Assembly: GCF_017498525.1 (NCBI RefSeq)
Contig: NZ_CP071796.1
Location: forward strand, 4,098,041 to 4,162,040
From: Ottowia testudinis
GTDB lineage: Bacteria > Pseudomonadota > Gammaproteobacteria > Burkholderiales > Burkholderiaceae_C
DNA: 64,000 nucleotides
Direction of reading: 5' to 3'
Both the position numbers and the translations under genes were made by a program. A model generated the notes under the pieces. The model saw nothing but the letters and a program-made list of their open reading frames with translations. It was not told where the DNA came from and searched no databases. This document shows positions 295-41,980 of this stretch, in pieces; the stretch's first letter is position 1; every line of letters starts with the position of its first letter.

Positions 295-403
295 ATCAGA
301 AGGCCGCGGAGCAGGCCATCCGGGAACGCCGTGGCCGGGGTTCCCCCGGCCACGAGCGTTGTCCCCTGGGGGAAGGCGCGTCAGCGCCACAGGGGGGGCG
401 TCA
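295..403 (+). repeat. Family B multi-hairpin repeat, copy B1 (about 110 bp)
   Basis: GAAGGCCGCGGAGCAGGCC...CCGTGGCCGGGGTTCCCCCGGCCACG...GTCCCCTGGGGGAAGGCGCGTCAGCGCCACAGGGGG has three perfect hairpins. It is near-identical to copies at 41873-41980 (same strand), 18649-18760 and 20432-20535 (reverse complement). Confidence 0.8.
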
Positions 404-1108
404 CTCCTGGTTTTTGGCGAACACATAGCCCACGCCCCGCACCGTCAGGATGCGCTTGGGATTTTTCAAGTCGGCCTCGATGGCGGCGCGGATGCGGCCC
501 ATGTGCACGTCGATCGAGCGGTCGAACGCCTCCAGCTCTCGGCCGCGCACGGCTTCCATGATCTGGTCGCGCGTCAGCACGCGGCCAGCGCGCTCGGCCA
601 GCGTCACCAGCAGGTCGAACTGGTAGCTGGTCAGTTCGGCCGGCTGGCCGCCCACGGTGACGGTGCGCGCGTCGCGGTCGATCTCAAGCTGGCCAAAGCG
701 CAACACCTTGTGCTCGGGCGCGGCACCAGGCTGGTGGCGGCGCAGCACGGCGCGGATGCGCGCCAGCAGCTCGCGCGGCTCGAACGGCTTGGGCAGGTAG
801 TCGTCGGCGCCCAGCTCCAGGCCGACGATGCGGTCCATCGGGTCGCCCTTGGCGGTGAGCATCAGCACCGGCACGCGCCCCGCGTCGCCCGGCAGCGCGC
901 GGATGCGGCGGCACACTTCCAGGCCGTCGATGTCGGGCAGCATCAGGTCGAGCACCACCAGGTCGACGGGCTTGTCTTGCAACGCGGCCAGGCCCGACGC
1001 GCCATCAAGCATGTGCGTGACGGCAAACCCCGACTGCGTGAGGTACTCGCCCACCATGGCCGCCAGGCGGGCGTCGTCTTCGATCATCAACAGGTGGTGG
1101 GTGCTCAT
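401..1108 (-). CDS. OmpR/PhoB-family two-component response regulator
   Basis: Receiver domain (LMIEDDARL...VLDLMLPDIDGLEV...KGD) plus winged-helix C-terminus (LTSYQFDLLVTLAERAGRVLTRDQIMEAV...GVGYVF). Shine-Dalgarno AAGAGGAG sits before the ATG. The long upstream ORF extension in the six-frame track is spurious. Confidence 0.9.
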   Translation of the reverse strand: MSTHHLLMIEDDARLAAMVGEYLTQSGFAVTHMLDGASGLAALQDKPVDLVVLDLMLPDIDGLEVCRRIRALPGDAGRVPVLMLTAKGDPMDRIVGLELGADDYLPKPFEPRELLARIRAVLRRHQPGAAPEHKVLRFGQLEIDRDARTVTVGGQPAELTSYQFDLLVTLAERAGRVLTRDQIMEAVRGRELEAFDRSIDVHMGRIRAAIEADLKNPKRILTVRGVGYVFAKNQE

Positions 1109-1215
1109 GCGCTCCTCTTTCGATCCCCGGGCAACAGGCCATGATGTCCATGACCCGCTGGGCCCGCTTGAACCGGGGGTAAAGATAAGTAAACCGCGCC
1201 GCGCTGGCGGCGCAG

Positions 1216-1268
1216 TTACTACACTAATAATAGCTGCTCGCGCTTGACTGACAAGCGCTACAGCCATT
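1216..1268. repeat. Family A palindromic repeat
   Basis: TAATAATAGCTGCTCGCGCTTGACTGACAAGCGCTACAGCC between the response regulator start and the ampG stop. Confidence 0.7.
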
Positions 1269-1269
1269 T

Positions 1270-2622
1270 TTAACCAGATGGCTTGCGCTGTACCCGCATC
1301 GCCAGCGCCACCAGCACCAGCACCGGCAGCCCCAGCAGCGCCGTGCTGGTGAAGAAGCCCGCGTAGCCAAACGCATTGACGTAGTCGCCCGAAAAACCGG
1401 CGATGAACTTGGGCAGCATCAGCATCAGCGACGAGAACAGCGCGTACTGCGTGGCCGAATAGCTGATGTTGGTCAGGCTGCTCAAATAGCCCACGAACGC
1501 CGCCGACGCTATGCCGCTGGCCAGGTTGTCGGCCGACACCACGGCAATCAGCGCCGGCACGCTGTGGCCATGGCCGGCCAGCCAGGCGAACAGCAGGTTG
1601 GTCAGCGCGCTCAGGGCCGCGCCCAGCATCAGGATGCGCATCACGCCAAAGCGCAGCGCCAGCGCGCCGCCCACGAAGGCGCCGGCCAGCGTCATGATGA
1701 CGCCGTAGACCTTGGTCACCGCCGCCACTTCGTCCTTGGTGTAGCCCATGTCCACATAGAACGGGTTGGCCATGATGCCCATCACGACGTCGCTGATGCG
1801 GTACACCGCGATCAGCGCCAGGATCAGCGCCGCCTGCCACTTGTAGCGTTTGAAAAAATCGGCGAACGGCTCGATGAGCGCCGAGCGCACCCATTCGCCC
1901 GCGTTGCGCGCAGGCGGTATCGGGCGCGGCGCCGGCTCGGGCGACAGCAGCACCGTCAGCACGCCCAGCGCCATGCTGGCGGCCATCACCAGGTACGCCG
2001 CCTGCCAGGCCGCGTGGTCGTAACCCGCCGCGCCGCCCTGCGCGCGCGCGGCCAGCCACAGCACGCCGGCACCGGCCCAGATCATGGCCAGCCGGTAGCC
2101 GGTCTGGTAGCTGGCGGCCAACGCGGGCTGCTGCTCGGTCGGCGCGGATTCGATGCGGTAGGCGTCCAGCGCGATGTCCTGCGTGGCCGAGGCAAAGGCC
2201 ACCGCCAGCGCGCACCACACCACGGCGGTGAGCGACGCACGCGGGTCGGCCCACGCCATGCCCACCAGCCCCGCCGCCACGCCCAGCTGCGCCAGCAGCA
2301 GCCAGCTGCGCCTGCGCCCAAGCCAGGGCGTGAGCAGCGGAATCGGCACGCGGTCGACCAGCGGCGCCCAAACCCACTTGAAGCCATACGCCAGACCGAC
2401 CCAGCTCAAATAGCCGATGGTGCTGCGGTCGATGCCCGCCTCGCGCAATCGAAACGAGAGCGTGCCCAGCACCAGCAGCAAGGGCAAGCCCGCCGAAAAG
2501 CCCAGCGCCAGCATGCGCAGGCTGGCCGGCTGCAGGTAGACCTTGAGGCTGTCCAGCCACGACGGCTGGCGCGCCGGCACGTCAGCGGCGGGGCCGGGCG
2601 CGTTGTCAGACAAGGACTGCAC
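1270..2622 (-). CDS. ampG: AmpG-type MFS permease (muropeptide / beta-lactamase induction signal transducer family)
   Basis: About 12 transmembrane-like hydrophobic stretches. The N-terminal region WLDSLKVYLQPASLRMLALGFSAGLPLLLVLGTLSFRLREAGIDRSTIGYLSWVGLAYGFKWVWAPLVDR looks like AmpG/PAT-family proteins. Confidence 0.75.
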   Translation of the reverse strand: MQSLSDNAPGPAADVPARQPSWLDSLKVYLQPASLRMLALGFSAGLPLLLVLGTLSFRLREAGIDRSTIGYLSWVGLAYGFKWVWAPLVDRVPIPLLTPWLGRRRSWLLLAQLGVAAGLVGMAWADPRASLTAVVWCALAVAFASATQDIALDAYRIESAPTEQQPALAASYQTGYRLAMIWAGAGVLWLAARAQGGAAGYDHAAWQAAYLVMAASMALGVLTVLLSPEPAPRPIPPARNAGEWVRSALIEPFADFFKRYKWQAALILALIAVYRISDVVMGIMANPFYVDMGYTKDEVAAVTKVYGVIMTLAGAFVGGALALRFGVMRILMLGAALSALTNLLFAWLAGHGHSVPALIAVVSADNLASGIASAAFVGYLSSLTNISYSATQYALFSSLMLMLPKFIAGFSGDYVNAFGYAGFFTSTALLGLPVLVLVALAMRVQRKPSG

Positions 2623-2704
2623 CGGTTTGCGCCCCCGCAGCGCTGGCAGCGCACCGGCGCCGGGGTATCTTGTGGCATTTCATCCGCCCTATTATTCACC
2701 CCCC

Positions 2705-3667
2705 ATGTGCTGGATCTGCCACGCCAAGACTTCGGCCGCCGACACAGCGGCCACCCATCGGCCATGGCCGCCACGCCGGGCCTTTTTGCTGGCCGCGGGC
2801 AGCGCCGCCGCCGCGCCGGTGCTGGCGCAGGTGGACGTCGGCCGCGCCTCGGGCATGCGCAACCTGGTGCCGGCCGACCAGCTGGAGCGCGCTGCCGGCC
2901 AGCAATATGCCGAGCTGCTGGCCCAGGCGCGCGCCAAGGGTGCGCTGGCCGGTGACGGCAACCCGCAGCTGCGGCGTCTGCGCGCCATCGCCCAGCGGCT
3001 GGTTCCGCACACCGTTCAGTGGAACGAACGCGCCCGTCAGTGGCGCTGGGAAGTCAACCTGTTCGAGAGCAAGTCGATCAACGCCTTCTGCATGCCGGGC
3101 GGCAAGATCGGTTTCTTCAGCGGCATCCTCGATCAACTCAAGCTGACCGACGACGAAGTCGCCATGGTCATGGGCCACGAAATGGCCCACGCGCTGCGCG
3201 AACACGCGCGCGAGCGCATGGCCAAGACCACCGCCACCAGCCTGGGCCTGGAAGTGGCCGCCTCGCTGTTCGGCCTGGGGCAGCTGGGCCAAGTGGGCGC
3301 CAACCTGGGCAGCCAGCTGCTGAGTTTGAAATACAGCCGCGACGACGAGACCGAGGCCGACCTGGTCGGCCTGGAAATCGCCGCCCGCGGCGGCTACGGC
3401 CCCAACGCCAGCGTCAGCCTGTGGAACAAGATGAGCGCCGCCAGCCAGCGCCAGGGCGGCACCAGTTTTCTCTCCACCCACCCCAGCGGCCCCGACCGCA
3501 TCCGCCAGCTGCAAGCCAACGTGCCGCGCGTGGAGGGGCTGTACCGGCAGGCGCAGCGCGGGGGATCGGCCGCGCCTGCCACCCCTGCCGCGCCGGTTGG
3601 CGTCACCGCGCCCGGCCCAGCGCCGGATTACCAGACGCCGGTGGGCCGCGCCATCCGGGTGCAGTGA
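2705..3667 (+). CDS. M48-family zinc metallopeptidase (BepA/YcaL-like) with twin-arginine signal
   Basis: HEMAHALREH zinc motif (HExxH) and a downstream E (ETEAD). N-terminal RRAFLLAAGSAAAAPVLA resembles a Tat signal. The start is chosen at ATG 2705; the six-frame ORF extends further upstream into ampG. Confidence 0.8.
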   Translation: MCWICHAKTSAADTAATHRPWPPRRAFLLAAGSAAAAPVLAQVDVGRASGMRNLVPADQLERAAGQQYAELLAQARAKGALAGDGNPQLRRLRAIAQRLVPHTVQWNERARQWRWEVNLFESKSINAFCMPGGKIGFFSGILDQLKLTDDEVAMVMGHEMAHALREHARERMAKTTATSLGLEVAASLFGLGQLGQVGANLGSQLLSLKYSRDDETEADLVGLEIAARGGYGPNASVSLWNKMSAASQRQGGTSFLSTHPSGPDRIRQLQANVPRVEGLYRQAQRGGSAAPATPAAPVGVTAPGPAPDYQTPVGRAIRVQ

Positions 3668-3791
3668 GCGGCGCGCCCGACGGTCAACATCCGCCATCAG
3701 GGTTTTCGATAGCCCACCCGCGATTGCAGGTTGCATACCAATCACTTACCTTGCCTGTGCGGCACCGTCGCCGCGCACAAAGGAGTGAGAC

Positions 3792-4337
3792 ATGGGCGCT
3801 TATATGCAACAGCACGACATCTTCATCGGCAGCATGCTGGACGAACTCAACCTGCGCTTTGCGCCCTCGCAAAGCGAATATGGCGGTGTGGGCGGGCTGG
3901 ACGAGATGGTGGCGCTGCAGCAGGAGTTCGAGATCTTCAAGAAGGGCCGCCCGCTGAAAAACAGCATCGCGGCGCTCAACCTGCTTTCTCGCAACAACGA
4001 CGTCAAGCGGCGCTGGCTGGAATTGATCGGCAACCTGGGGCGACACCCCTCCAACCTGCAAGGCATGGATGGCGAACAAGCCATCATCACTGCGCTGGTC
4101 GACAACCTGCGCGCCAGCAAGCCGCTGCCGGTGTTCTTTGCCTCGCACAGCATGCTGGGGGAGCGCGACAACAAGCAGGTCAAAATCACGCCCCGCGCCC
4201 GCGCCGTGCACTACATCGAGCAGGACTACATCGTCATCTCGCTGCCCATGCAGTCGGTGCAGGCCTTCGAGGCTTATCAGCAGCAACGCGCCGCCGCCAA
4301 GGCCCAGGCCGCGCTGGAAGCCGCATCGGCTCCGTAA
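3792..4337 (+). CDS. Hypothetical protein, paralog 1 of a duplicated pair (181 aa)
   Basis: Shine-Dalgarno AAAGGAG before the ATG. About 50% identical to the 5183-5704 product, with shared blocks LDxLNxRFAP, QxEFxIFKxGRPL, LPVFFxSH and ISLPMQS. No family recognised. Confidence 0.6.
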   Translation: MGAYMQQHDIFIGSMLDELNLRFAPSQSEYGGVGGLDEMVALQQEFEIFKKGRPLKNSIAALNLLSRNNDVKRRWLELIGNLGRHPSNLQGMDGEQAIITALVDNLRASKPLPVFFASHSMLGERDNKQVKITPRARAVHYIEQDYIVISLPMQSVQAFEAYQQQRAAAKAQAALEAASAP

Positions 4338-4350
4338 CGCACCCGATTCG

Positions 4351-4998: not shown

Positions 4999-5021
4999 CG
5001 AACGGCGTCCGGCCTCTACTG

Positions 5022-9010: not shown

Positions 9011-9084
9011 AGAATTTTTTCTAAAAAAACAGCCTGTAGCGCTTGTCCATCAAGCGCGAGCAGCTGCAATAAATATAGCAATCA
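9011..9084. repeat. Family A repeat with AT-rich arms (..CAGCCTGTAGCGCTTGTCCATCAAGCGCGAGCAGCTGCAATAAATATAGCAATCA)
   Basis: The right arm AGCTnnAwAAATAwTAGCAAyCA also occurs at 14170-14195 and 24449-24472. Confidence 0.75.
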
Positions 9085-14126: not shown

Positions 14127-14192
14127 TTTTTCAACAAAATCAGCTGCCAGCGCTTATCAGGCAAGCGCAGGAAGCTCATAAAAATATAGCAA

Positions 14193-14195
<3 letters not shown>
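14124..14195. repeat. Family A repeat with AT hairpin flank (GATTTTTCAACAAAATC + AGCTGCCAGCGCTTATCAGGCAAGCGCAGGAAGCT + CATAAAAATATAGCAATCA)
   Basis: It overlaps the stop codons of both convergent genes: the DUF4124 TGA and the gatB TGA. Confidence 0.75.
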
Positions 14196-17545: not shown

Positions 17546-18760
<1,215 letters not shown>

Positions 18761-18924
18761 GACGGCTTGCTGCGCAGCCTGGGGGTCTTCTCCCTCTCCC
18801 GCTGGCGGGGAAGGGTTGGGGTGAGGGGGACACTTCAGCCAGAAGCCTTTCAGCGCACACGCATTCAGCGGACAATGCTCTTGTTTTGGTAGTAAATTCG
18901 CCCGTGCCGCACCGCTGATCCGCC

Positions 18925-19917
18925 ATGCCGCTCGAAACGCTTGACCGCTCTCCGCCGCCCTTCTTCAAGCAAGGGCCGTCGGCGCTGTCGCGGCTGCTGG
19001 TGCTGAGCGCGCTGGCGTTGTTTCTGATGGTGGCGGACGCGCGGTTTCACATCGTGCAGCCGTTGCGCGCGGCCATTGCCACGGTGCTTTACCCGGCGCA
19101 ATGGCTGGCGCTGCAGCCTGTGCAATGGGCGCAAACCGGCGTCAGCTACCTGACCGAGCTGAAAACCGCCCGCGCCACCGAAGAAGCCGCGCGCCTGAAG
19201 CTGGCCGAGCAATCGCAGCGCGCCGGCCAAGTCGAACAGCTGCTGCAGGAAAACGCCCGTCTGCGTGAGCTGCTGGCGCTGCGCGATCGCGTGCAGGTGC
19301 CCAGCGTCGCGGCGCAGGTGCTGTACGACGCCACCGACCCCTACAGCCGGCGCGTGGTGGTCAGCAAGGGGCAAGTGCAGGGCATCGAGCCCGGCTCGCC
19401 GGTGATGGACGAATCGGGCGTGCTGGGCCAGGTCACGCGCGTGTACCCCTTCGTCAGCGAGATCACGTTGCTGATCGACCGCGACCAGGTGATCCCCGTC
19501 ATGAACGCGCGCACCGGCACGCGCAGCGTGGCCTACGGCGATCCGTCACCACACGGCGGCATGATGGAGCTGCGCTACATGTCGGCCACCGAGGACGTGA
19601 AGGAGGGCGACCTGCTCACCACCAGCGGGGTCGATGGCGTCTACCCGCCGGGCCTGCCAGTGGCGCGCGTGGTGTCGGTCGATCGGCGCGGCGACACCTC
19701 TTTCACCCGCATCCAGTGCCAGCCGCTGGCCAAGCTGCAGGGCGTGACGCACGTGATGGTTCTGGCCCCCATGCAACGCCAGACGCCGGGCGGCGCCGAT
19801 GGCACGCCCACGGCCGCGCGACAGAAGCCGCTGGCGGCGCCGCCGGCATCGGCGCCGGCCGCCAGCGCGGGCGCTGCCCCCAACCGCCGCGCCGCGCGGC
19901 AGGGAGCCCGTCCATGA
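18925..19917 (+). CDS. mreC: Rod shape-determining protein MreC
   Basis: N-terminal transmembrane segment and coiled coil, with a C-terminal Pro/Ala-rich tail. ATGA overlap with mreD. Confidence 0.9.
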   Translation: MPLETLDRSPPPFFKQGPSALSRLLVLSALALFLMVADARFHIVQPLRAAIATVLYPAQWLALQPVQWAQTGVSYLTELKTARATEEAARLKLAEQSQRAGQVEQLLQENARLRELLALRDRVQVPSVAAQVLYDATDPYSRRVVVSKGQVQGIEPGSPVMDESGVLGQVTRVYPFVSEITLLIDRDQVIPVMNARTGTRSVAYGDPSPHGGMMELRYMSATEDVKEGDLLTTSGVDGVYPPGLPVARVVSVDRRGDTSFTRIQCQPLAKLQGVTHVMVLAPMQRQTPGGADGTPTAARQKPLAAPPASAPAASAGAAPNRRAARQGARP

Positions 19918-20432
19918 TCATGCCGCGTGGCCAGCAGCTGCTGCTGCCTGCCAGCCCCACTTTCATCTGGGGCAGCCTGGGGGTGGCGCTGATGCTCAAC
20001 CTGCTGCCGCTCGGGCGTGTGCTGTGGATGCCCGACTTCCTGGCCGTGGCGCTGGTGTTCTGGAACATCCACCAGCCGCGCCGCGTCGGCCTGGTGGCGG
20101 CGTTCGTGTTCGGCCTGCTGCTCGACGTGCACCAGGCCTCGCTGCTGGGCCAGCACGCGCTGGCCTACGCGGTGCTGATTTATTCGGCCATCATGATCCA
20201 CCGGCGCATCCTGTGGTTCTCGGTGCCCGGGCAGGCGCTGCAGCTCTTGCCGCTGTTCGCACTGACGCACGCCATCACCATCGTGCTGCGGCTCATTGGC
20301 GGCGCCGTCTTCCCGGGTTGGCCCGTGCTGCTGGCGCCCGTGCTCGAGGCGGCGCTGTGGCCGCTCGTCAGCGTGCTGCTGCTGGCTCCGCAGCGGCGCG
20401 CGCCCAACCCGGATGCCAACCGGCCGTTATGA
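19914..20432 (+). CDS. mreD: Rod shape-determining protein MreD
   Basis: Polytopic membrane protein in the canonical position after mreC. Confidence 0.85.
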   Translation: MIMPRGQQLLLPASPTFIWGSLGVALMLNLLPLGRVLWMPDFLAVALVFWNIHQPRRVGLVAAFVFGLLLDVHQASLLGQHALAYAVLIYSAIMIHRRILWFSVPGQALQLLPLFALTHAITIVLRLIGGAVFPGWPVLLAPVLEAALWPLVSVLLLAPQRRAPNPDANRPL

Positions 20433-20535
20433 CTTCCCCCCTGAGTCGCCTTCGGCGCCATCCCCCAGGGGACAACGCCAGTGGCCGGGCCAAGCCCGCC
20501 ACGGCGTTCCGGCGTGGCCTGCTCCGCGGCCATTT
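20432..20535 (-). repeat. Family B multi-hairpin repeat, copy B4 (reverse orientation), immediately after the mreD stop
   Basis: The reverse complement reads ATGGCCGCGGAGCAGGCCACGCCGGAACGCCGTGGCGGGCTTGGCCCGGCCACTGGCGTTGTCCCCTGGGGGATGGCGCCGAAGGCGAC. Confidence 0.75.
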
Positions 20536-20607
20536 GGCGGGCTTGCCGCGCAGCCGTTGCGAGCACGCGGCAACTCCGCAGACGGTTTTGACTTGAATCG
20601 TTTGCCA

Positions 20608-20690
20608 ACGATTGTTTCTTGATTGAAAATCGCTGCTGGCGCTTGACTGATAAGCGCGAGCAGCTACTGATTTGATAGTTTTCACGGTTC
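20608..20690. repeat. Family A repeat with AT-rich hairpin arms, upstream of mrdA
   Basis: ACGATTGTTTCTTGATTGAAAAT-CGCTGCTGGCGCTTGACTGATAAGCGCGAGCAGCT-ACTGATTTGATAGTTTTC. Confidence 0.75.
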
Positions 20691-20693
20691 GTC

Positions 20694-22643
20694 ATGACTG
20701 AAATCCGCAACGCCGAAGCCGAGCTGGTGCGCTTTCGCGTGCGCTTGGGCGCGGTGGGGCTGGCGGTGCTGGTGGCGTCCGGCCTGCTGGCGTGGCGGCT
20801 GTATCACCTGCAGGTGCTGCGCCACGACGAGCTGGCGCAGCGCGCCGAGACCAACCGCACGGCGGTGGTGCCGATCGTGCCGCACCGTGGCGAAATCCTC
20901 GACCGCAACGGCGTGGTGCTGGCCACCAACTACAAGGCCTACACGCTCGAGATCACGCCGTCGCGCCTGGGCCGCTCGACCGACGAGGCGATCGACGCCA
21001 TCGCGCAGGTGGTCGAGGTCACGCCGCGCGACCGTCGGCGCTTCAAACGGCTGCAGGAAGACTCGCGCAACTTCGAGTCGCTGCCGATCCGCATGCGCCT
21101 GTCGGACGAGGAAGTGGCGCGCTTTGCCGCCCAGCGCTACCGTTTTCCGGGCGTGGAGATCAAGGCGCGCTTGTTCCGCACCTACCCCATGGGCGAGACC
21201 GGCGCGCACGTGGTGGGCTACATCGGCCGCATCAACCAGAAGGAAAAAGAGCGCATCGACGACTCCGACGACGCGCCCAACTACCGCGGCACCGACTACA
21301 TCGGCAAGCTGGGAGTCGAGGCCAGCTACGAACACATGCTGCACGGCACCACCGGCGTCGAGCAGATGGAAACCTCGGCCGGCGGCTACGCGGTGCGGCG
21401 CCTGGCCAGCCACCCATCGACGCCGGGCGATTCGGTGCGGCTGTCGATCGACATCCAGCTGCAGAAACTGGTCGAGGAAATGTACGGCGAGCGGCGCGGC
21501 GCGCTGGTGGCCATCGACCCCAGCAACGGCGAGATCCTGGCCTTCGTCAGCAAGCCCACCTACGACCCCAACCTGTTCGTCGAGGGCATCGACCACGAGA
21601 GTTGGGACGAGCTGAACAACTCGCTCGACAAGCCGCTGCTCAACCGCGCCATCCGCGGCACCTACCCGCCCGGTTCCACCTACAAGCCGTTCATGGCGCT
21701 GGCCGCGCTGGAGACCGGCAAGCGCACCGCCGGCACCACCATCATGGACGGCGGCTCGTGGACTTTTGGCGGCCACACCTTCCGCTCAGGCCACGCGCTG
21801 GGCGCGGTGGACCTGCACCGCAGCATCGTCAAGTCAAGCAACGTGTACTACTACATGCTGGCCAATGACATGGGGGTGAACCTGATCCACGACTTCATGA
21901 AGCCGCTGGGCTTCGGCCAGGTGACCGGGGTCGACATTCCGGGCGAAACGCGCGGCATCCTGCCGTCGACCGACTGGAAGCGCGCCACCTACCGCAAGCC
22001 CGAGCAACAGAAGTGGTACGCCGGCGAAACCATTTCGCTGGGCATCGGCCAGGGCTACAACAACTTCACCATGCTGCAGCTGGCCAGCGCCACCGCCACG
22101 CTGGCGGCCGGCGGCGTGCGGCACGTGCCGCACCTGGTGAAGGCGCGCCAGGACGCCATGAGCCAGCAGGTGGCCGAAGTGGCGCAGCCGCCGGGCCAGA
22201 ACCTGGGCTACAAGCCGGCCAACGTCGATGCCGTCAAGCGCGGCATGGTCGGCGTCACGCTGGAAGGCACCTCGCGCGGGGTGATGGCCGGCGCGCCCTA
22301 CCTGTCGGGCGGCAAGACCGGCACGGCGCAGGCCGTCACCATCGGCCAGAAGAGCCGCTACAACGCGGCGCGCTTGTCCGAATACCAGCGCGACCATTCC
22401 CTCTACATCGCCTTCGCGCCGGCCGACAACCCGCGCATCGCCGTGGCCGCCATCGTCGAGAACGCCGGCTTTGGCGCCGCCCACGCCGCGCCGCTGGTGC
22501 GCCGCGTGATGGACTACTGGGTGTCCGGCGTGTACCCGAGCGAAGCCGACATCGCCGCCCTGCAGCGCGGCGCCGCCACCGCGCCCATCGGCACGCCGCG
22601 CCGCGTGGCCGACGTGGTGCAGCAGACGCTGGCCGCGCCCTGA
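20694..22643 (+). CDS. mrdA: Penicillin-binding protein 2 (peptidoglycan D,D-transpeptidase MrdA)
   Basis: 649 aa. STYKPF (SxxK), SSN and KTG motifs are present. Confidence 0.95.
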   Translation: MTEIRNAEAELVRFRVRLGAVGLAVLVASGLLAWRLYHLQVLRHDELAQRAETNRTAVVPIVPHRGEILDRNGVVLATNYKAYTLEITPSRLGRSTDEAIDAIAQVVEVTPRDRRRFKRLQEDSRNFESLPIRMRLSDEEVARFAAQRYRFPGVEIKARLFRTYPMGETGAHVVGYIGRINQKEKERIDDSDDAPNYRGTDYIGKLGVEASYEHMLHGTTGVEQMETSAGGYAVRRLASHPSTPGDSVRLSIDIQLQKLVEEMYGERRGALVAIDPSNGEILAFVSKPTYDPNLFVEGIDHESWDELNNSLDKPLLNRAIRGTYPPGSTYKPFMALAALETGKRTAGTTIMDGGSWTFGGHTFRSGHALGAVDLHRSIVKSSNVYYYMLANDMGVNLIHDFMKPLGFGQVTGVDIPGETRGILPSTDWKRATYRKPEQQKWYAGETISLGIGQGYNNFTMLQLASATATLAAGGVRHVPHLVKARQDAMSQQVAEVAQPPGQNLGYKPANVDAVKRGMVGVTLEGTSRGVMAGAPYLSGGKTGTAQAVTIGQKSRYNAARLSEYQRDHSLYIAFAPADNPRIAVAAIVENAGFGAAHAAPLVRRVMDYWVSGVYPSEADIAALQRGAATAPIGTPRRVADVVQQTLAAP

Positions 22644-24337: not shown

Positions 24338-24408
24338 CCGTAGGGTGAGTGCTTGCACCCACGCGCGACAGCCAGTCCCCGCGTGGGTGCAAAGCACCCA
24401 CCCTACGG
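24338..24408. terminator. Family D long palindrome D1 (28-bp stem CCGTAGGGTGAGTGCTTGCACCCACGCG / complement)
   Basis: Near-perfect hairpin 4 bp after the katA stop. It lies between the convergent katA and giant ATPase genes and is a likely bidirectional terminator. No U-tract follows. Confidence 0.5.
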
Positions 24409-24416
24409 GGATGAAA

Positions 24417-24472
24417 TGGACTGCTGGCGCTTGTCCAGCAAGCGCCAGTAGCTATTCAAATAATAGCAACCA
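24417..24472. repeat. Family A repeat (GGACTGCTGGCGCTTGTCCAGCAAGCGCCAGTAGCT + ATTCAAATAATAGCAACCA)
   Basis: Immediately downstream of the giant ATPase stop. Confidence 0.75.
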
Positions 24473-30792: not shown

Positions 30793-30873
30793 GGGCTGTC
30801 TTTCATGGCGCGGTGTGCGGGCGAGGCGATAACGCATCCGGCCCAGCCCACCGCCTATTTTTGGGTCAAATCA

Positions 30874-30925
30874 AACGCTTGCGCTTGCCAGTCAAGCGCA
30901 AGCAGCTATCAAAAACAAAGTGCCC
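30874..30925. repeat. Family A repeat (CGCTTGCGCTTGCCAGTCAAGCGCAAGCAGCTATCAAAAACAAAGTG)
   Basis: Between the flotillin stop and the zinc-ribbon gene. Confidence 0.75.
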
Positions 30926-30937
30926 AGCAAGAATGCA

Positions 30938-33123: not shown

Positions 33124-33320
33124 ACAGCCTGAACTTCCGGACGCAGAGGACGCAGAGGTTTCGCAGAGGACGCAGAAGGAACAGCCAAAAAGGATTTTTT
33201 AGCTCTCAAATTCATAGCGCACTACGCGGATTGCACGTGGACAAGCGGCGGATTTCGCCTTGTTTTTGAATTTTTTGCGTCCTCTGCGTCATCTTTGCGT
33301 CCTTGGCATGAGGCTGTTTG
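33124..33320. repeat. Family C MITE-like element, copy C1: terminal inverted repeats of tandem GACGCAGAGG units around an AT-rich core
   Basis: Left arm AACAGCCTGAACTTCCGGACGCAGAGGACGCAGAGG...; right arm is its reverse complement ...GCGTCCTCTGCGTCATCTTTGCGTCCTTGGCATGAGGCTGTTTGG. Inside the operon, between the NfeD-like and flotillin genes. Confidence 0.7.
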
Positions 33321-35180: not shown

Positions 35181-35212
35181 GGCGGTTCTCCTTGTCGGTT
35201 GAATGGGGGCGG

Positions 35213-35737: not shown

Positions 35738-35898
35738 AAACAGCCGGACGCGAAGGACGCGAAAAAGACAAAAATCTTCTGGCCTATGGGGTCGTTGGCC
35801 GCGCCATCACGAACGATGTGTCACGAGCCGAACAAGAATTTTTTGAATTCTTTCGCGTCTTTCGCGCAATCTTCGCGCCCTTCGCGTAAGGGCTGTTT
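35738..35898. repeat. Family C MITE-like element, copy C2 (arms built from GACGCGAAGG / CGCGAA units)
   Basis: Left arm AAACAGCCGGACGCGAAGGACGCGAAAAAGAC; right arm is the reverse complement of AAACAGCCCTTACGCGAAGGGCGCGAAGATTGCGCGAAAGACGCGAAAG. Its end includes the RND stop codon. Confidence 0.7.
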
Positions 35899-38800: not shown

Positions 38801-38962
38801 GGCGCCCGGCAGCGCCGCCACCACGTTGACCATGGGCATGTCGATGTCGGGAAAGTTCTGCACCTTCATCTGATGGAAGCTGAACAGCCCCCCCAGCGTG
38901 AGCAGCAGAAACAGCATCAGCGTCGGTACCGGGTTGCGGATCGACCAGGCGGAAAAGTTCAT
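35897..38962 (-). CDS. RND efflux transporter permease (AcrB/AcrD/AcrF superfamily), 1021 aa
   Basis: 12-transmembrane RND topology with large periplasmic loops. N-terminus MNFSAWSIRNPVPTLMLFLLLTLGG. Confidence 0.95.
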   Translation of the reverse strand: MNFSAWSIRNPVPTLMLFLLLTLGGLFSFHQMKVQNFPDIDMPMVNVVAALPGATPGQLENEVARKIENSLATVQGVKHISTSIVDGSVSIMVEFRLEKDLQEALDDVRSAVSRVRGDLPGDVREPIVSKLDLAAQPMLAYALSSRRMSDADLSWFVDNDIAKRLLAIPGVGAVNRVGGADRQVQVALDPVRLQGLGVTAADVSRQLRQVQMESAGGRVDLGAGEQPVRTLATVGTADELRALPIALQDGRSVRLDQVASVADSVAEPRAAALLNGQKVVGFEVARSRGASEVEVGAGVRAALAELRAAHPDLQFTEAFDFVTPVEEEYHASLKMLGEGAVLAVLVVWLFLRNGRATFVSAVALPMSVLPALIGMYFFGFSINIVSLLALSLVIGILVDDAIVEVENIVRHLRMGKSPYQAAMEAADEIGLAVIATTFTLIAVFLPTAFMSGVVGKFFKQFGWTASLAVFASLVVARMLTPMMAAYLMKPLAGGHEDPRWLRVYGRWAAWCVRHRLLTLLGALAFFIGSLALVPLLPTAFITPDDNSQTQVYLELPPGSTLQETERTAEAARAQLLKNQYIKSVYTTIGGGSAGGDPFSAGAADVRKATLTIQLAARGERPVKQAVEAELRRLIAGLPGVRSKIGLGGSGEKYILVLQGDDPHALTQAARAVESDLRTVPGLGSVTSTASLVRPEIAVKPDFARAADLGVTSSAIADTLRVATLGDYDAQLPKLNLAQRQIPIVVKLDADARKNLDVLARLHVPGSKGPVPLSQVAALSLSGGPAVINRYDRARNVNLEVELSGQPLGDVAAKVKELPSVKTLPAGVRVVEVGDAEVMGELFLGFGLAMLTGILCIYLVLVLLFHHVLHPITILAALPLSLGGAFVGLLLAGKSLSMPSLIGLIMLMGVATKNSILLVEYAILARREHGLNRFEALMDACHKRARPIIMTTLAMGAGMLPIAIGWGGSDPSFRSPMAVAVIGGLITSTFLSLLVIPAVFTYVDDVAEWVKRRWRGGGERAT

Positions 38963-38976
38963 GGCGGCGGCGGGAT

Positions 38977-39016
38977 TGAATAGCTATTTATTTAATAGCT
39001 GTTTGCGCTTGATTGG
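38977..39016. repeat. Family A-like AT/GC palindrome (AATAGCTATTTATTTAATAGCTGTTTGCGCTTGATTGG), overlapping the 3' end of the periplasmic adaptor gene
   Basis: It encodes the last residues (..ANQAQTAIK*) of the 38988-40142 product and reaches the RND start region. Confidence 0.5.
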
Positions 39017-40142
39017 CGGGCGCAGCAGGCGCTTTTGGCACTGAATCGGCCACCACCTGCACCAGATCGCCGTCGTTCAGGAAGGCGCCGCCCTGCACCA
39101 CCACGCGGGCGCCCGCGTCCAGCCCGCCCGTGATTTCAACCCGCCCGCCGGCCAGCCGCCCGGTCTGCACGCGCAGCAGCTGCACGCGGTCGCCCTCGCC
39201 CAGCTTCAGCACGTGGGCAAAGCCGTCGCGCATGACGATGGCGTCTTGCGGCACCGTCAGCGCCTCGCCCTGGCCGATGGCGATGCGCCCGCGCGCGAAC
39301 ATGCCGGCGCGCGCCGGGCCGCCGCGCGGCAGGTCAACGTAGACGATGGCAAAGCGCGTCTTCGGGTCCACCGTGGGCGCCAGCTGGCGCACGGTGCCGG
39401 TGAGCGGCGGCGCGGCGGCATCGGGCGCGCCGGGCAAGTCGATCCGCACCGCCTGGCCGGCTCGGATGGCGGGCAGGTCTTCAGCCATCACCTCGCCGCG
39501 CCATTCCAGCCGGCCCTGGCGCACCATGCGGAACAGCTCGGTGCCGGGCGCCACCACCTGGCCCACGGTGGCCATGCGGGCGGAAATGACGCCGGCATCG
39601 GGCGCCAGCACCTGCGTGTTGCGCACGCGCAGCGCCTGGCTGCCGACCACGGCGCGCGCCGCCTCGACCCGGGCGCGGGCGGTTTTCTCGGCCGTCACAT
39701 ATTGGTTGATCTGCTGCTGGCTCAAAGCGCCGCTGGATTGCACGGCGCGCGCGCGTTCGGCGTTGCCGCGCGCATCGGCGTGGGCGGCTTCGGCCTCGGC
39801 CAGGCTGGCGCGCGCCTGCGCCTGGTCTTGCTGCACGGGCGCGGCGTCGAAGGTGGCCAGCACCTGGCCTTTTCTCACCACGTCGCCCACGTTCACGCGC
39901 ACATCGGCCAGCCGCAGGCCGCCCACGTCGGCGCCCACGCTGGCCTCTTGCCAGGCGGCGATGTTGCCATTGGCGGTGATTTCGCGCGTCAGGTTCTGGC
40001 GCTCAGGGTGCGCCACGGTCACGGTGAGCGCGGGGCGCGGCGCGCTGGCGGCCGCTTGCGGGCCATTGGCGGCGCCGTCTTTCTGGCCGCAGGCGGCAAG
40101 CGCCAGGGCGGCGGCCAAAAGCATGGTGGGGATGGATTTCAT
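38988..40142 (-). CDS. RND efflux periplasmic adaptor subunit (MFP/HlyD family) lipoprotein
   Basis: Lipobox LALAAC. Biotinyl-lipoyl-like and beta-barrel regions. Confidence 0.9.
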   Translation of the reverse strand: MKSIPTMLLAAALALAACGQKDGAANGPQAAASAPRPALTVTVAHPERQNLTREITANGNIAAWQEASVGADVGGLRLADVRVNVGDVVRKGQVLATFDAAPVQQDQAQARASLAEAEAAHADARGNAERARAVQSSGALSQQQINQYVTAEKTARARVEAARAVVGSQALRVRNTQVLAPDAGVISARMATVGQVVAPGTELFRMVRQGRLEWRGEVMAEDLPAIRAGQAVRIDLPGAPDAAAPPLTGTVRQLAPTVDPKTRFAIVYVDLPRGGPARAGMFARGRIAIGQGEALTVPQDAIVMRDGFAHVLKLGEGDRVQLLRVQTGRLAGGRVEITGGLDAGARVVVQGGAFLNDGDLVQVVADSVPKAPAAPANQAQTAIK

Positions 40143-40200
40143 CGGTGATTCCTGGGGCGCTGCTCGGGCGCGCTGATCGCTGTCGCGAAGCCGTGGTGAT

Positions 40201-41634
40201 TCATGGCGCCGGCGCCTGCCAGCCGCCGCCCGCCGCCTTGTACAGTGCCACGCCCGCGGCCTGCTGCTCGTGCAGCAGCTGCGCCAGCGCGGTCTCGGCG
40301 CCCAGCAGATTGCGGCGCGCTTCTTCCAGCTGCGGCAGGTTGGCCATGCCCTGGCGGTACAGCGCCTCGGTGGCGGCGAACTGCTGGCGGTAGCCGGCCA
40401 CGGCGGCGCGGGCGTCGGCCTCGCGCCCGCGCGCGGCGGCGCCTTGCGTGAGGGCGGTTTCCACCTCTTGCACGGCCTGGCGCACCTTGCCCTGGTAGTT
40501 GGCCACGGCTTCGTCGTAGCGCGCCCGCGCCGCCGCCTGGCCCGCCGCGATGCGGCCGCCGTCGAAGATCGGCAGGCTGAGTTGCAGCGGCCCGAACTGC
40601 CAGGTGGAAAAGTCGCGCGTGCCGCCGCCGGCGCGCAGTTGCAGCGCGCCGATGTTGCCGGCCAGGCTCAAGCCCGGCCAGCGCGCGGCATCGGCCGACG
40701 CCAGCTCGGCCCGCGCGGCCAGCACCTCGCGCTCGGCGGCCCACACGTCGGGGCGCTGGCGCAGGGTGTCGGCGGGCAGAGTTGCTATTGAAAATAGAGC
40801 TGATTGCGATGAATTGGCGCGGGCAAGCGCCATTTTTTGCTCGATATCCGGCTCGGGCAGCCCGGTCAACGCCACCAGCGCCTTGCGCTGCGCATCGCAC
40901 GTGGCCTGCTGCTGCGTGGTGCGCGCGCGGCCGTCGGCGGCGCTGGCGTCGGCCAGTGCGGCGGTGGCGGGCGCGGTGAAGCCGGCGTCGCGGCTGATGC
41001 GCGCCAGGCGCGCGGTCTCGCCGCGCGAAGCGGCGTCTTGGCGCGCGGTCTCCAGCAGCGACTGGCACAGCCGCAGGCCGTGGTAGCTGCTGGCCACGTC
41101 GCCCACCAGCGCCACGCGCGCCAGGTGCGCCAGCGCCTGGGCGCCCTCGGCGCGCGCCGTGGCGGCGCCGACCAGCGCGCGCTGGCGGCCGAACAGATCA
41201 ATTTCCCAGCTCGCCTGCACGCCGGCTTGCAGCGTGGTGGCGATCGGCGGATCGCTGCCCGGCGGCGTGCTGCCCACGCTGCCCGCGTTGCCGCGCGTGG
41301 CGCTGGCGGCGGCGCCCAGCTGCGGCAGCAGGCCGGCGCGCTGGCTGCCCACCTGCGCGCGCGCCTGCGCCACGCGCGCTTCGGCCGCGGCCAGGCTCGG
41401 GCTGCCTTGCAAGGCGGCGTCGATCAATTCGGTGAGCGTGGCGTCGCCGCCCGCGCGCCACCAGCCGGCCAGCGCAACGGCGCTGCCGGCATGCGGCAGC
41501 GGGGCGATCCAGGCGGGCGGCGCGATGTGTTCCAGCGGCGGCGCGGCGGGCGGCGGCGTGGCGCAGCCGGCCAAGGCGAGCAGCGTCGCGGCGCCGAACA
41601 GCGCGCGGCAGCGGAGAGCAAAAAACGATCTCAT
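40201..41634 (-). CDS. Efflux outer-membrane factor lipoprotein (OprM/NodT family)
   Basis: Lipobox LLALAGC. Two TolC-like repeats. Gene order OMF-MFP-RND. Confidence 0.9.
   Translation of the reverse strand: MRSFFALRCRALFGAATLLALAGCATPPPAAPPLEHIAPPAWIAPLPHAGSAVALAGWWRAGGDATLTELIDAALQGSPSLAAAEARVAQARAQVGSQRAGLLPQLGAAASATRGNAGSVGSTPPGSDPPIATTLQAGVQASWEIDLFGRQRALVGAATARAEGAQALAHLARVALVGDVASSYHGLRLCQSLLETARQDAASRGETARLARISRDAGFTAPATAALADASAADGRARTTQQQATCDAQRKALVALTGLPEPDIEQKMALARANSSQSALFSIATLPADTLRQRPDVWAAEREVLAARAELASADAARWPGLSLAGNIGALQLRAGGGTRDFSTWQFGPLQLSLPIFDGGRIAAGQAAARARYDEAVANYQGKVRQAVQEVETALTQGAAARGREADARAAVAGYRQQFAATEALYRQGMANLPQLEEARRNLLGAETALAQLLHEQQAAGVALYKAAGGGWQAPAP
40786..40840. 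repeat. Possible intragenic, in-frame family A-like copy inside the OMF gene
   Basis: A low-GC patch GGCGCTTGCCCGCGCCAATTCATCGCAATCAGCTCTATTTTCAATAGCAAC encodes ..MALARANSSQSALFSIAT.. in frame. It resembles GCGCTTG-n-CAAGCGC...ATAGCAATCA. Confidence 0.35.
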
Positions 41635-41780
41635 GCGATGCTTCAAAAACCTGGGTGCGCGCGAATGTTGCATTGCACCACAGCTGCATGGCATCACTGC
41701 GAGAACCCGCACTGTGCTTATGGTGCCAAGGCGTCGCCACAGGCCAAGCCGCGACGAACCGAAAAATACAAGGATTTAAG

Positions 41781-41828
41781 GCCCTTGTCCACGTCAGGCA
41801 AGCGCAAGCAGCTATCGAAAACGAAGTG
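41781..41828. repeat. Family A repeat (GGCCCTTGTCCACGTCAGGCAAGCGCAAGCAGCTATCGAAAACGAAGTG)
   Basis: Same right-arm subtype as the 30106 and 30874 copies. Confidence 0.65.
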
Positions 41829-41872
41829 CCGGACAAAATGGCGGCGGCACCAGCCAATGCCTTCTCAGCGTG

Positions 41873-41980
41873 ATCCGAAGGCCGCGGAGCAGGCCACACC
41901 GGAACGCCGTGGTCGGGGTTCCCCCGACCACCAGCGTTGTCCCCCTCAGGGGGAAGGCGCGTCAGCGCCACAGGGGGAGT
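41873..41980 (+). repeat. Family B multi-hairpin repeat, copy B2, abutting tRNA-Arg
   Basis: GATCCGAAGGCCGCGGAGCAGGCCACACCGGAACGCCGTGGTCGGGGTTCCCCCGACCACCAGCGTTGTCCCCCTCAGGGGGAAGGCGCGTCAGCGCCACAGGGGGAG. Relative to B1 the central stem carries compensatory C-G to T-A changes. Confidence 0.8.

What the first reader, a model, noticed from the sequence alone, without database searches (positions are those of the whole stretch)
295..41980. Family B: a roughly 110-bp triple-hairpin element with compensatory mutations and a fixed antisense orientation inside operons (possible structured RNA / REP-like element)
Four copies: 295-403 (+), 41873-41980 (+), 18649-18760 (-) and 20432-20535 (-).

Each has three stems: GGCCGCGGAGCAGGCC..., CCGTGGCCGGGG-TTC-CCCCGGCCACG, and GTCCCCTGGGGGAAGGCGCGTCAGCGCC.

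Between copies the central stem changes by paired substitutions that keep the pairing: GGCCGGGG/CCCCGGCC versus GGTCGGGG/CCCCGACC, and GGCGCGTCAGCGCC versus GGCGCCGCAGGCGCC. That implies selection on secondary structure.

In all four cases the element is opposite in orientation to the flanking genes, that is, in one fixed orientation relative to transcription. The positions are: between the response regulator and histidine kinase genes, directly after the mreB stop, directly after the mreD stop, and abutting tRNA-Arg. A fixed orientation relative to transcription suggests an RNA-level role within operons (mRNA stabiliser, attenuator or sRNA).
Basis: seen in the sequence. Interest (0 to 1): 0.6.

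Follow-up and report, generated by a model that had tools for sequence, protein, structure and literature searches.

The report
Stop-codon-hugging hairpin repeat of Comamonadaceae
The four copies are real members of a previously uncatalogued family of small, four-hairpin repeat elements, found in several Comamonadaceae genera, that sits almost always a few bases after the end of a gene in one orientation; it looks like a once-mobile element now kept as an RNA structure at the ends of messages, although that role has not been shown.

Summary
All four copies exist at the stated coordinates.

- **Distribution.** The same element occurs in Ottowia, Curvibacter, Hylemonella, Hydrogenophaga and Rhodoferax genomes. 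A covariance model found 155 copies at 102 independent sites.
- **Structure.** The core is about 80 nt: a long hairpin P1, a C-run/G-run hairpin P2, a hairpin P3 and a terminal G-run. Ottowia-type copies add a 5' mini-hairpin, GGCCGCGGAGCAGGCC. Covariation is strong: 92.9% of cells pair against 84% in shuffles, and 18 of 25 pairs show double changes.
- **Position.** The G-run end abuts a stop codon on the opposite strand at 72 sites (median gap 2 nt) and a same-strand gene at 7. TGA, TAA and TAG are used at background frequencies.
- **Mobility.** The same intergenic spacer is found empty, filled, and filled in the opposite orientation, which indicates past mobility.
- **Constraint.** Orthologous copies change more slowly than neighbouring synonymous sites.
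- **Databases.** There is no match in Rfam, plasmids or viral contigs.

The closest described element is the Bordetella "BRE" repeat, which shares the architecture but not the sequence.

Best reading: a REP-like repeat retained as a structure at the 3' end of messages or between cistrons. The functional strand and the transposition mechanism remain unresolved.

The parts
295..403 (+). Copy 1, whole element. Conserved left edge TCAGAA at 296-301. Mini-hairpin GGCC-GCGGAGCA-GGCC at 302-317. P1 at 325-360 (AACGC CGTGGCCGGGG TTC CCCCGGCCACG A GCGTT). P2 at 363-372 (CCCC T GGGGG). P3 at 375-388 (GGCGC GTCA GCGCC). Terminal G-run at 392-398. Tail CGTCA at 399-403.
   Evidence: (covariance-model hit 320-397, 82.5 bits)
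401..1123 (-). OmpR-type response regulator gene. Its TGA stop (401-403) is the last three bases of copy 1. The start coordinate is approximate.
   Evidence: Response_reg 1.9e-27, Trans_reg_C 6.9e-24
41873..41980 (+). Copy 2, whole element. Mini-hairpin at 41880-41895; core at 41898-41978. It ends 6-9 nt from the 3' end of tRNA-Arg.
   Evidence: 92.7 bits. An orthologous copy lies next to the same tRNA in L034.
41987..42062 (-). tRNA-Arg (anticodon CCG). Its 3' end faces the G-run end of copy 2.
18649..18760 (-). Copy 3, whole element. Core at 18656-18737; mini-hairpin at 18740-18755. The G-run end plus GCGTCAC abuts the mreB stop.
   Evidence: (91.6 bits). Orthologous copies follow mreB in L076, L082, L116 and L118.
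17564..18652 (+). mreB. The TGA stop is at 18650-18652.
   Evidence: MreB_Mbl 2.3e-145
18764..18779 (-). Extra upstream mini-hairpin module GGCTGCGCAGCAAGCC. About half of the Ottowia-type copies carry one.
20432..20535 (-). Copy 4, whole element. Core at 20436-20513; mini-hairpin at 20516-20531. The G-run end lies 3 nt from the mreD stop.
   Evidence: (78.8 bits)
19914..20432 (+). mreD. The TGA stop is at 20430-20432.
   Evidence: MreD 1.4e-15
20540..20555 (-). Extra upstream mini-hairpin module GGCTGCGCGGCAAGCC beside copy 4.
20694..22643 (+). mrdA (PBP2), the gene downstream of copy 4. In another genome (L082) a copy sits in the opposite orientation directly before this gene's ATG.

Best explanation
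This is a family of small, non-autonomous repeat elements: an 80-nt core, about 110 nt with the 5' mini-hairpin. It has spread within Comamonadaceae chromosomes. It survives almost only where its G-run end lies within a few bases of the 3' end of a gene, on the strand opposite to that gene.

The predicted RNA runs: stop codon, C-run, P3', C-run/G-run hairpin P2', a long 16-20 bp hairpin P1'. In Ottowia-type copies a compact GC hairpin follows, then UUNGA.

**Proposed mechanism (inferred, not shown).** This block of stable hairpins forms directly behind the terminating ribosome, or behind the tRNA body. It would act as a barrier to 3'-to-5' exonucleases and/or a processing site and weak terminator. 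It would thereby stabilise the upstream cistron (mreB, mreD, the regulator, tRNA-Arg) relative to downstream ones, as REP elements do in the E. coli malE-malF operon.

**Shown:**
- the anatomy and its covariation;
- the position and orientation rule;
- presence/absence polymorphism;
- slower-than-synonymous change at orthologous sites.

**Inferred:**
- that the gene-sense RNA is the active form;
- that the effect is on message stability or polarity;
- the means of spread, for which no transposase was identified.
For: Model R1 found 155 copies.
2. **Structure kept through sequence change.** 92.9% of cells pair against 84.0% in shuffles (0 of 500 shuffles reach it). 18 of 25 pairs show double changes. 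Slid controls give 41-53%. Copies found without the search pattern show whole-arm swaps such as AACGC/GCGTT to GGCGC/GCGCC or ACACC/GGTGT, and GTGG/CCAC to GCGG/CCGC or ACGG/CCGT.
3. **Position and orientation.** At 102 independent sites the coding strand beyond the G-run end is opposite at 72 and the same at 7. The stop codon is a median 2 nt away. In convergent gene pairs the G-run end is 2 nt from one stop, while the other end is a median 47 nt from the other stop.
4. **Any gene end, not a DNA word.** TGA/TAA/TAG counts are 57/10/4, against a background of 74/18/8%. Two orthologous copies follow a tRNA instead of a stop codon.
5. **Constraint in place.** In 22 orthologous site clusters, identity at core positions outside the search pattern is 0.81, against 0.72 at third codon positions of the flanking gene. 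The core is higher in 17 of 22 clusters (Wilcoxon p = 0.007). In the Curvibacter/Hylemonella group the values are 0.85-0.98 against 0.61-0.71.
6. **Orientation follows transcription, not replication.** Both orientations occur in the window without a skew switch.
7. **Terminator-like tail.** In the gene-sense strand of Ottowia-type copies, the mini-hairpin folds as ((((.((...)))))) and is followed by a conserved U-rich UUNGA.
Against: - No expression or 3'-end data exist for any copy.
- Folding z-scores are the same on both strands.
- No canonical intrinsic terminator is detected in or next to the copies examined. Curvibacter-type copies lack the U-rich tail altogether.
- Seven sites carry the element in the other orientation, directly before a start codon.
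- The conservation result is conditioned on both orthologues still being recognisable. Gene conversion between copies could also produce it. The orthologous copies after mreB carry different P1 tips.
Confidence: 0.42

Rival explanations
1. It is a purely selfish miniature mobile element. The hairpins are single-stranded DNA signals read by a transposase supplied in trans (IS200/IS605- or RAYT-like, which need no terminal inverted repeats or target duplication). Position and orientation would come from the insertion mechanism plus purging of harmful insertions. There would be no host function.
For: - Presence/absence polymorphism. The mreD-mrdA spacer is empty in L076 (45 nt), filled in the window, L116 and L118, and filled in the opposite orientation in L082.
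- Copy number differs between related genomes.
- There are no terminal inverted repeats, and hairpins lie near both ends.
- In two cases the insertion replaced the last codons of the gene and supplied a new TGA.
- ATGA is enriched before the element: 25 of 71 sites against 14% in the background.
- The strand test is neutral, as expected for a DNA signal.
Against: - No constant target word was found. TGA, TAA and TAG all abut the element at background frequencies, and the spacing varies from -10 to +20 nt.
- Orientation does not follow replication direction in the window, unlike IS200/IS605 elements.
- Orthologous copies change more slowly than synonymous sites, which dead insertions should not.
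- No transposase partner or full-length parent was seen in about 0.9 Mb of flanks, although this was not searched systematically.
- There is no match in plasmids or viral contigs.
Confidence: 0.27
2. The active form is an RNA read in the reader's orientation, antisense to the 3' end of the neighbouring gene. It would be an independently transcribed small RNA or cis-antisense regulator, comparable to BprJ1, the 80-nt RNA made from a Bordetella BRE.
For: - There are slightly more G-T than A-C cells on this strand (47 to 24).
- Purine-purine G-A/A-G mismatches recur at fixed helix positions on this strand.
- Hot et al. 2011 (PMC3110155) detected an 80-nt transcript from a BRE and used its direction to orient the repeats.
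- The G-run end resembles a Shine-Dalgarno sequence. It sits 1-14 nt before an ATG at several of the 7 sense-oriented sites.
Against: - No conserved promoter exists. The sequence 5' of the core differs completely between loci in Curvibacter-type copies and is GC-rich hairpin modules in Ottowia-type copies.
- No terminator follows the G-run.
- The strand bias disappears once the column fixed by the search pattern and one ambiguous column are removed.
- Every copy is in any case transcribed on the other strand, as part of the upstream gene's message.
Confidence: 0.1
3. It is a DNA-level site, in the manner of E. coli BIMEs. The element would bind a nucleoid or topology protein (gyrase, IHF-like), or form a cruciform or triplex that manages supercoiling at gene ends.
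For: - The position at gene 3' ends, where positive supercoils accumulate.
- Neutrality in the strand test.
- The conserved arrangement of one C-run and two G-runs. G-run lengths co-vary (rho 0.53 between the two G-runs, 0.59 between the C-run and the first G-run), which would allow an intramolecular purine triplex.
Against: - A double-stranded DNA site would conserve sequence rather than co-vary in its arms.
- Orientation relative to the gene (72 to 7) is not expected for a symmetric topological role.
- No binding-site consensus was identified.
Confidence: 0.07
4. It is a switch in the message that senses translation termination. The C-run just after the stop codon and the second C-run compete for the single G-run, so a ribosome sitting on the stop codon would decide which fold forms. 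That in turn would set polarity, Rho access or decay.
For: - The first C-run lies 0-10 nt after the stop, within a ribosome footprint.
- Both alternative pairings appear in minimum-free-energy folds of different copies.
- Run lengths co-vary.
- The same C/G/G layout occurs in BRE.
Against: - Copies next to tRNA-Arg have no ribosome.
- Insertions that lengthen P2 support only the local hairpin.
- Bases flanking the runs do not co-vary for the long-range helix (inspection).
- The correlation between the C-run and the terminal G-run is weak (rho 0.27).
Confidence: 0.06

Closest known systems
Beta-proteobacterial repeat element (BRE), Hot et al. 2011, BMC Genomics 12:207 (PMC3110155)
   Same: - A small (75-91 bp), GC-rich chromosomal repeat of Betaproteobacteria, including Comamonadaceae, mostly intergenic and sometimes overlapping gene ends by a few bases.
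- The same layout by inspection: a GGCCGCGG head, a C5-loop-G6 hairpin, a further hairpin, then a terminal G-run.
- At least one copy gives a stable 80-nt RNA.
- Its orientation is not tied to the replication fork.
   Different: - There is no alignable sequence similarity. blastn-short with four Bordetella BREs hits only separate 87-bp tandem repeats in L006 and L108, never the element. Model R1 does not hit those repeats.
- BRE lacks the long P1 hairpin and is flanked by T/A runs.
- BRE is typically in tandem arrays of variable number. This element is nearly always single.
REP / BIME elements of Enterobacteria and Pseudomonas, with their RAYT transposases
   Same: - Extragenic, GC-rich and hairpin-forming, concentrated just after gene ends and inside operons.
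- Covariation keeps the stems.
- Known roles as message stabilisers. From my own knowledge, REPs within about 15 nt of a stop codon also affect translation termination (Liang, Rudd and Deutscher 2015).
- They lack terminal inverted repeats.
   Different: - A REP is a single 20-40 nt palindrome with a conserved GTAG or CGTC head, often in alternating orientation within BIMEs.
- This element has four different hairpins in a fixed order over 80-110 nt, no such head, and one strongly preferred orientation.
- No RAYT association was examined.
MITE-like bacterial repeats (Correia/NEMIS, ERIC, BOX, RUP)
   Same: - Small, non-coding, present in many copies and polymorphic between strains.
- Co-transcribed with neighbouring genes.
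- Able to change message stability or supply gene ends.
   Different: - No terminal inverted repeats.
- No clear target-site duplication.
- A strict end-to-stop-codon relation that is not described for those families.
Integron attC sites
   Same: A structured site directly after an ORF, in fixed orientation, with structure conserved more than sequence. One strand is the active one.
   Different: - Neither the RYYYAAC/GTTRRRY core sites nor the single long imperfect hairpin is present.
- The neighbours are core genes (mreB, mreD, tRNA), not cassettes.

Membership tests
Rfam release 15 (any family) | A covariance-model match at the family's gathering score | tested here: not met
   Over the whole window on both strands, only the tRNA matched. 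A permissive search of 18500-20700 gave only chance hits with E above 1, none on the element core.
BRE (Hot et al. 2011) | At least 70% identity to the roughly 90-bp Bordetella consensus | tested here: not met
   blastn-short with four published BRE sequences gave no hit on any element copy. Its hits fall on separate tandem repeats in L006 and L108.
BRE (Hot et al. 2011) | Occurrence in tandem arrays of variable number | tested here: not met
   153 of 155 copies are single. Only L039 has two adjacent copies, and L022 has a partial duplication of the tail.
BRE (Hot et al. 2011) | Layout: GGCCGCGG head, C-run/G-run hairpin, second hairpin, terminal G-run | tested here: met
   By inspection of the published sequences against alignments A1 and A2. 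This is a resemblance only.
REP/BIME | A single 20-40 nt imperfect palindrome with a conserved GTAG or CGTC head | tested here: not met
   The element has four distinct hairpins over 80-110 nt and no GTAG head. CGTC occurs only in the 3' tail of some copies.
REP/BIME | Alternating orientation of units within clusters | tested here: not met
   The modules always appear in the same order and orientation.
REP/BIME | An associated RAYT (Y1 transposase) gene flanked by the repeats | not tested
   The flanks were not screened for Y1 transposases, and complete genomes were not available to the tools.
MITE | Terminal inverted repeats | tested here: not met
   Only internal hairpin arms were found in copies 1 and 3.
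MITE | Target-site duplication | tested here: inconclusive
   TCA or TCAT is frequent at both edges but not universal. Empty-site comparisons are too diverged to fix the left boundary.
MITE / mobile element in general | Presence/absence polymorphism at orthologous sites | tested here: met
   The mreD-mrdA spacer is empty in L076, filled in the window, L116 and L118, and filled in inverted orientation in L082. At least four further empty sites were found.
IS200/IS605-derived miniature elements | A constant tetra- or pentanucleotide target abutting one end | tested here: not met
   TGA, TAA and TAG all abut the element at background frequencies, and the spacing is variable.
IS200/IS605-derived miniature elements | Orientation tied to the replication strand | tested here: not met
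   Both orientations occur within 42 kb of the window with no GC-skew switch. This is a small sample.
Intrinsic (Rho-independent) terminator | A GC-rich stem followed by a run of U (at least 5 T in 8) | tested here: not met
   No such site lies in or beside copies 3 and 4. Ottowia-type copies have only UUNGA after a 6-bp hairpin.
Integron attC | R''/R' core sites and a place in a cassette array | tested here: not met
   No RYYYAAC...GTTRRRY was found by inspection. The neighbours are mreB, mreD, a two-component regulator and a tRNA.

The most novel reading that the evidence does not exclude
The shared layout of this element and the Bordetella BRE is one C-run, a G-run, a hairpin spacer and a second G-run, placed within a ribosome footprint of the stop codon. 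This layout may be the working part of a new class of gene-end device. One possibility is a message switch or triple helix that reads whether a ribosome has terminated and sets decay or polarity. Another is a mobile element that finds gene ends by a route that does not depend on DNA sequence.
Probability: 0.12. Interest if true: 0.8.

Novelty: new member of a known kind. Interest (0 to 1): 0.5.

Why it matters
If the reading holds, Comamonadaceae carry their own counterpart of REP elements, with three unusually clean properties:

- one defined end touches the stop codon (or the tRNA 3' end);
- orientation is about 90% fixed;
- orthologous copies are held more tightly than synonymous sites.

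That makes it a tractable system for asking how a selfish repeat becomes a host regulatory part, and how structures placed directly behind the stop codon shape operon expression. Here the operon would be mreBCD-mrdA, which is essential.

It also matters for annotation. The element is absent from Rfam. It creates spurious ORFs, and in some genes it supplies the stop codon or the Shine-Dalgarno-like sequence.

Tried and rejected
- **Chance or low-complexity artefact.** Rejected.
- **Known RNA family.** No Rfam match at gathering score or in a permissive search.
- **Plasmid or phage origin.** No match in PLSDB or in IMG/VR contigs.
- **Identity with the published BRE.** Rejected on sequence. BRE-like 87-bp tandem repeats exist separately in Ottowia.
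- **TGA as a DNA target.** Rejected, because stop-codon usage equals the background.
- **A TNA or TCAT target duplication.** Frequent but not consistent.
- **Canonical terminator.** Not found.
- **Terminal inverted repeats.** Not found.
- **Small ORF inside the element.** Rejected by inspection. Loop length changes are not multiples of three.
- **Hammerhead, HDV-like ribozyme or group II domain V.** Considered from motif memory for the core and for the 77-nt insert. The core motifs do not fit, and Rfam found nothing.
- **Deciding the strand by G-U versus A-C counts or folding energy.** Indecisive.
- **The 77-nt insert as a separate mobile element.** It occurs only inside this element, so the question is unresolved.
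- **Literature search by sequence strings.** Nothing relevant.
- **OCR'd supplementary table of the BRE paper.** Unusable.


Full report
**1. Observation**

They align with 80% mean column identity.
- Exact or near-exact matches to three conserved words occur only at these four sites. The 18-mer head gives 7 matches at up to 3 mismatches against 0.47 expected; the four true copies have 0-1 mismatch.
- Rfam finds only the tRNA in the window. A permissive search over the mre copies finds nothing relevant.
- Pfam confirms the neighbours: an OmpR-type response regulator, MreB, MreC, MreD, PBP2 and an outer-membrane efflux protein. ARAGORN confirms tRNA-Arg(CCG).
- In three copies the last bases of the element (..GTCA) overlap or abut the reverse complement of the neighbour's TGA stop. 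The stops are at 401-403, 18650-18652 and 20430-20432. The fourth copy ends 6-9 nt from the 3' end of the tRNA.

**2. The family elsewhere**

All are Comamonadaceae or unclassified Burkholderiales: Ottowia, Curvibacter, Hylemonella, Hydrogenophaga and Rhodoferax.
- The window's mre region is 87-94% identical to Ottowia MAG loci L116 and L118. The source is probably an Ottowia-like organism; this is an inference.
- A covariance model built on 101 cores (R1) found 155 copies in the 120 loci plus the window. About 30 of them do not match the search pattern, so the pattern did not select them.

**3.

- **Ottowia-type head.** A conserved edge YC-N-R-R-N, then a mini-hairpin GGCC-GCGGAGCA-GGCC. The hairpin co-varies: GGCT/AGCC in 9 of 72 sites and GGTC/GACC once. 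About half the copies have a second, similar hairpin (GGCTGCGCAGCAAGCC) before it.
- **Core, all types.**
  - P1 = AACGC + (C) + GTGG + an apical hairpin that comes in at least five self-complementary versions + CCAC + 2 nt + GCGTT.
  - GT.
  - P2 = C4-6, a variable loop, G4-6. Loop insertions extend the helix, for example CCCCCTC-CCGAAGA-GAGGGGG.
  - AAG.
  - P3 = a 5-7 bp GC hairpin in several co-varying versions, often with a G-A or A-G mismatch at its second pair.
  - C(U/A)CA.
  - A terminal G-run, often followed by (A)GCGTCA.
- Curvibacter and Hylemonella copies lack the head.
- Eight copies carry a 77-nt two-hairpin insert exactly between P2 and P3. The insert never occurs outside the element in about 0.9 Mb. 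It is 100% identical in two copies of one genome whose P1 arms differ by three compensated pairs.

**4. Covariation**

- On the model-fitted alignment of 129 copies, 92.9% of cells form standard pairs, against 84.0 ± 0.3% when partners are shuffled (0 of 500 shuffles reach it).
- 18 of 25 pairs have changes on both sides, covering 230 cells against 64 expected.
- Sliding the partner by 1-3 columns drops pairing to 41-53%.
- The alignment was fitted to the structure and the copies are related, so these figures overstate independence.
- The pattern-independent copies nevertheless show whole-arm replacements that keep pairing.
- Which strand folds cannot be decided. There are 47 G-T cells against 24 A-C cells. 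However, 13 of the G-T cells lie in a column whose partner was fixed by the search pattern, and 12 lie in an ambiguously aligned column. Outside the pattern columns the count is 31 to 23. Folding energies and z-scores are alike on both strands.

**5. Position and orientation**

- Coding strand was called from the codon-position GC pattern (GC3 > GC1 > GC2) together with open frames.
- Copies were grouped by similarity of their 3' flanks, so that orthologous sites count once.
- Of the 102 independent sites, 72 have a gene on the opposite strand ending at the G-run end. Seven have a same-strand gene starting there. The other 23 are uncallable: next to a tRNA, tandem, truncated or at a contig end.
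- The stop codon is a median 2 nt from the G-run. Most fall between -1 and +10 nt. In about 8 sites the stop is the TGA inside the element's own CTCAG motif.
- Stop usage is 57 TGA, 10 TAA and 4 TAG, against 74/18/8% for ordinary genes in the same loci. The element therefore follows stop codons as such, not the word TGA. ATGA is moderately enriched: 25 of 71 sites against 14%.
- In convergent gene pairs the G-run end is 2 nt from one stop, while the other end is a median 47 nt from the other stop. The closeness is therefore not just a consequence of short spacers.
- In the window, copies 1 and 2 are on the + strand and copies 3 and 4 on the - strand, with no GC-skew switch between them. Orientation follows the gene, not replication.

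**6. Mobility**

- The mreD-mrdA spacer exists in three states:
  - 45 nt and empty in Ottowia sp. AMR_MDS_5882 (L076);
  - carrying the element right after the mreD stop in the window, L116 and L118;
  - in O. beijingensis (L082), carrying the element in the opposite orientation with its G-run 9 nt before the mrdA ATG.
- Further empty sites were found opposite L099-2812, L041, L017-1462 and L088-391. In the last two, the filled allele has a different, shorter C-terminus and a new TGA on the element side.
- There are no terminal inverted repeats. No consistent target duplication could be read.
- No copy was found on plasmids or viral contigs.

**7. Constraint in place**

- Twenty-two site clusters were compared using the most diverged pair in each. 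Identity of the core outside the 23 pattern-fixed bases averages 0.81. Third codon positions of the adjoining gene average 0.72. The core is higher in 17 of 22 clusters (Wilcoxon p = 0.007).
- In Curvibacter/Hylemonella clusters the core is 85-98% identical, while third positions are near saturation at 61-71%.
- Two caveats apply. Both members had to remain recognisable. Gene conversion among copies could also homogenise them; the five orthologous copies after mreB carry three different P1 tips.

**8. Interpretation**

- Because every copy lies within a few bases of the end of a gene or tRNA, it is necessarily transcribed on the gene-sense strand as a 3' trailer or intercistronic segment.
- Several findings fit best with an element that arrived by transposition and is retained where it serves as an RNA structure at message ends. 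That structure could be an exonuclease barrier, a processing site or a weak terminator setting the ratio of upstream to downstream cistrons. The findings are:
  - the orientation bias;
  - indifference to stop-codon identity;
  - the tRNA-adjacent copies;
  - constraint at orthologous sites;
  - in Ottowia-type copies, a compact GC hairpin followed by conserved UUNGA on that strand.
- This role is inferred, not shown. No canonical terminator is detected.
- The main rival is a purely selfish element whose hairpins are single-stranded DNA signals. It explains the mobility and the neutral strand test. It does not explain the lack of a target word, the independence from replication direction, or the slow change at orthologous sites.
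- Template-switch mutation in palindromes could generate paired changes without selection. This tempers the inference from covariation alone.

**9. Comparison with known elements**

- The closest published item is the Beta-proteobacterial repeat element of Hot et al. 2011 (PMC3110155).
  - It shares the head GGCCGCGG, the C5-loop-G6 hairpin, a second hairpin and a terminal G-run. One copy yields an 80-nt RNA.
  - There is no alignable similarity, P1 is missing, and BRE is typically tandem.
- REP/BIME, MITE, IS200/IS605-derived, attC and terminator definitions each fail at least one tested defining feature (see the membership table).
- I therefore class it as a new family within the known kind of small structured bacterial intergenic repeats.

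**10. Unexplained**

- The role of the terminal G-run. Its length co-varies with the first G-run (rho 0.53) more than with the C-run (rho 0.27).
- The TG/CA dinucleotide alternation at the foot of P1.
- The 77-nt insert.
- How the element reaches gene ends.

Noticed in passing
window 233-285, 1218-1278, 9016-9084, 14127-14195, 20625-20682, 24404-24472, 30858-30926, 38980-39043, 40781-40844, 41784-41830, 44365-44411, 50317-50385, 51957-52010, 52131-52191: A second, more abundant intergenic repeat family of about 50-70 nt (ATAGCTGCT-CGCGCTTG-N5-7-CAAGCGC-...-TTTTT; a hairpin plus A/T-rich flanks), present in both orientations. It lies within 40-100 nt of three of the four copies studied here. 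It may be a terminator or promoter-region element.
   Followed up: partly
window 18785-18845: A hairpin repeat (CCCTCTCCC-GCTGGC-GGGGAAGGG followed by GGGGTGAGGGGG) between the mreB element and mreC. The same motif precedes element copies in L022, L094, L032 and L039, so the intergenic regions are mosaics of several repeat families.
   Followed up: no
L006 2920-3165 (Ottowia pentelensis); L108 1170-1510 (Ottowia sp. VDI28): True BRE-like 86-87-bp tandem repeats. In L006, three units (261 nt, in frame) lie inside what reads as the methionyl-tRNA formyltransferase gene. In L108, four units end with the G-run 6 nt before the ATG of a short-chain dehydrogenase-like gene.
   Followed up: partly
L013 2422-2500, L043 6861-6935, L084, L098 1906-1982 and 5076-5152, L002, L078, L049: A 77-nt two-hairpin insert (CTGAGG-YCYGCGGCTCC...CCGAAG...) found only inside the element, always between P2 and P3. 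It is 100% identical in two copies of one genome whose P1 arms differ by compensated pairs.
   Followed up: partly
L082 1522-1607 (-), L109 5669-5750, L030 3828-3904, L120 3489-3567, L057 7650-7733: Minority copies in the sense orientation, whose terminal G-run (GGGGG(A)G) sits 1-14 nt before the start codon of the next gene. There it could act as the Shine-Dalgarno sequence.
   Followed up: partly
window 33273-33307, 35851-35885, 42234-42268, 52087-52121: A T-rich 35-nt direct repeat (TTTTGCGTC-TTCGCG-N-TCTTCGCGCCCTTCGC) at four intergenic places. One lies about 170 nt beyond tRNA-Arg.
   Followed up: no
L017 1462-1550 vs L055/L103; L088 391-468 vs L047: In two filled-versus-empty comparisons the gene next to the element has a different, shorter C-terminus that ends at a TGA lying on the element side. 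Insertion can therefore rewrite the last codons of a protein.
   Followed up: partly
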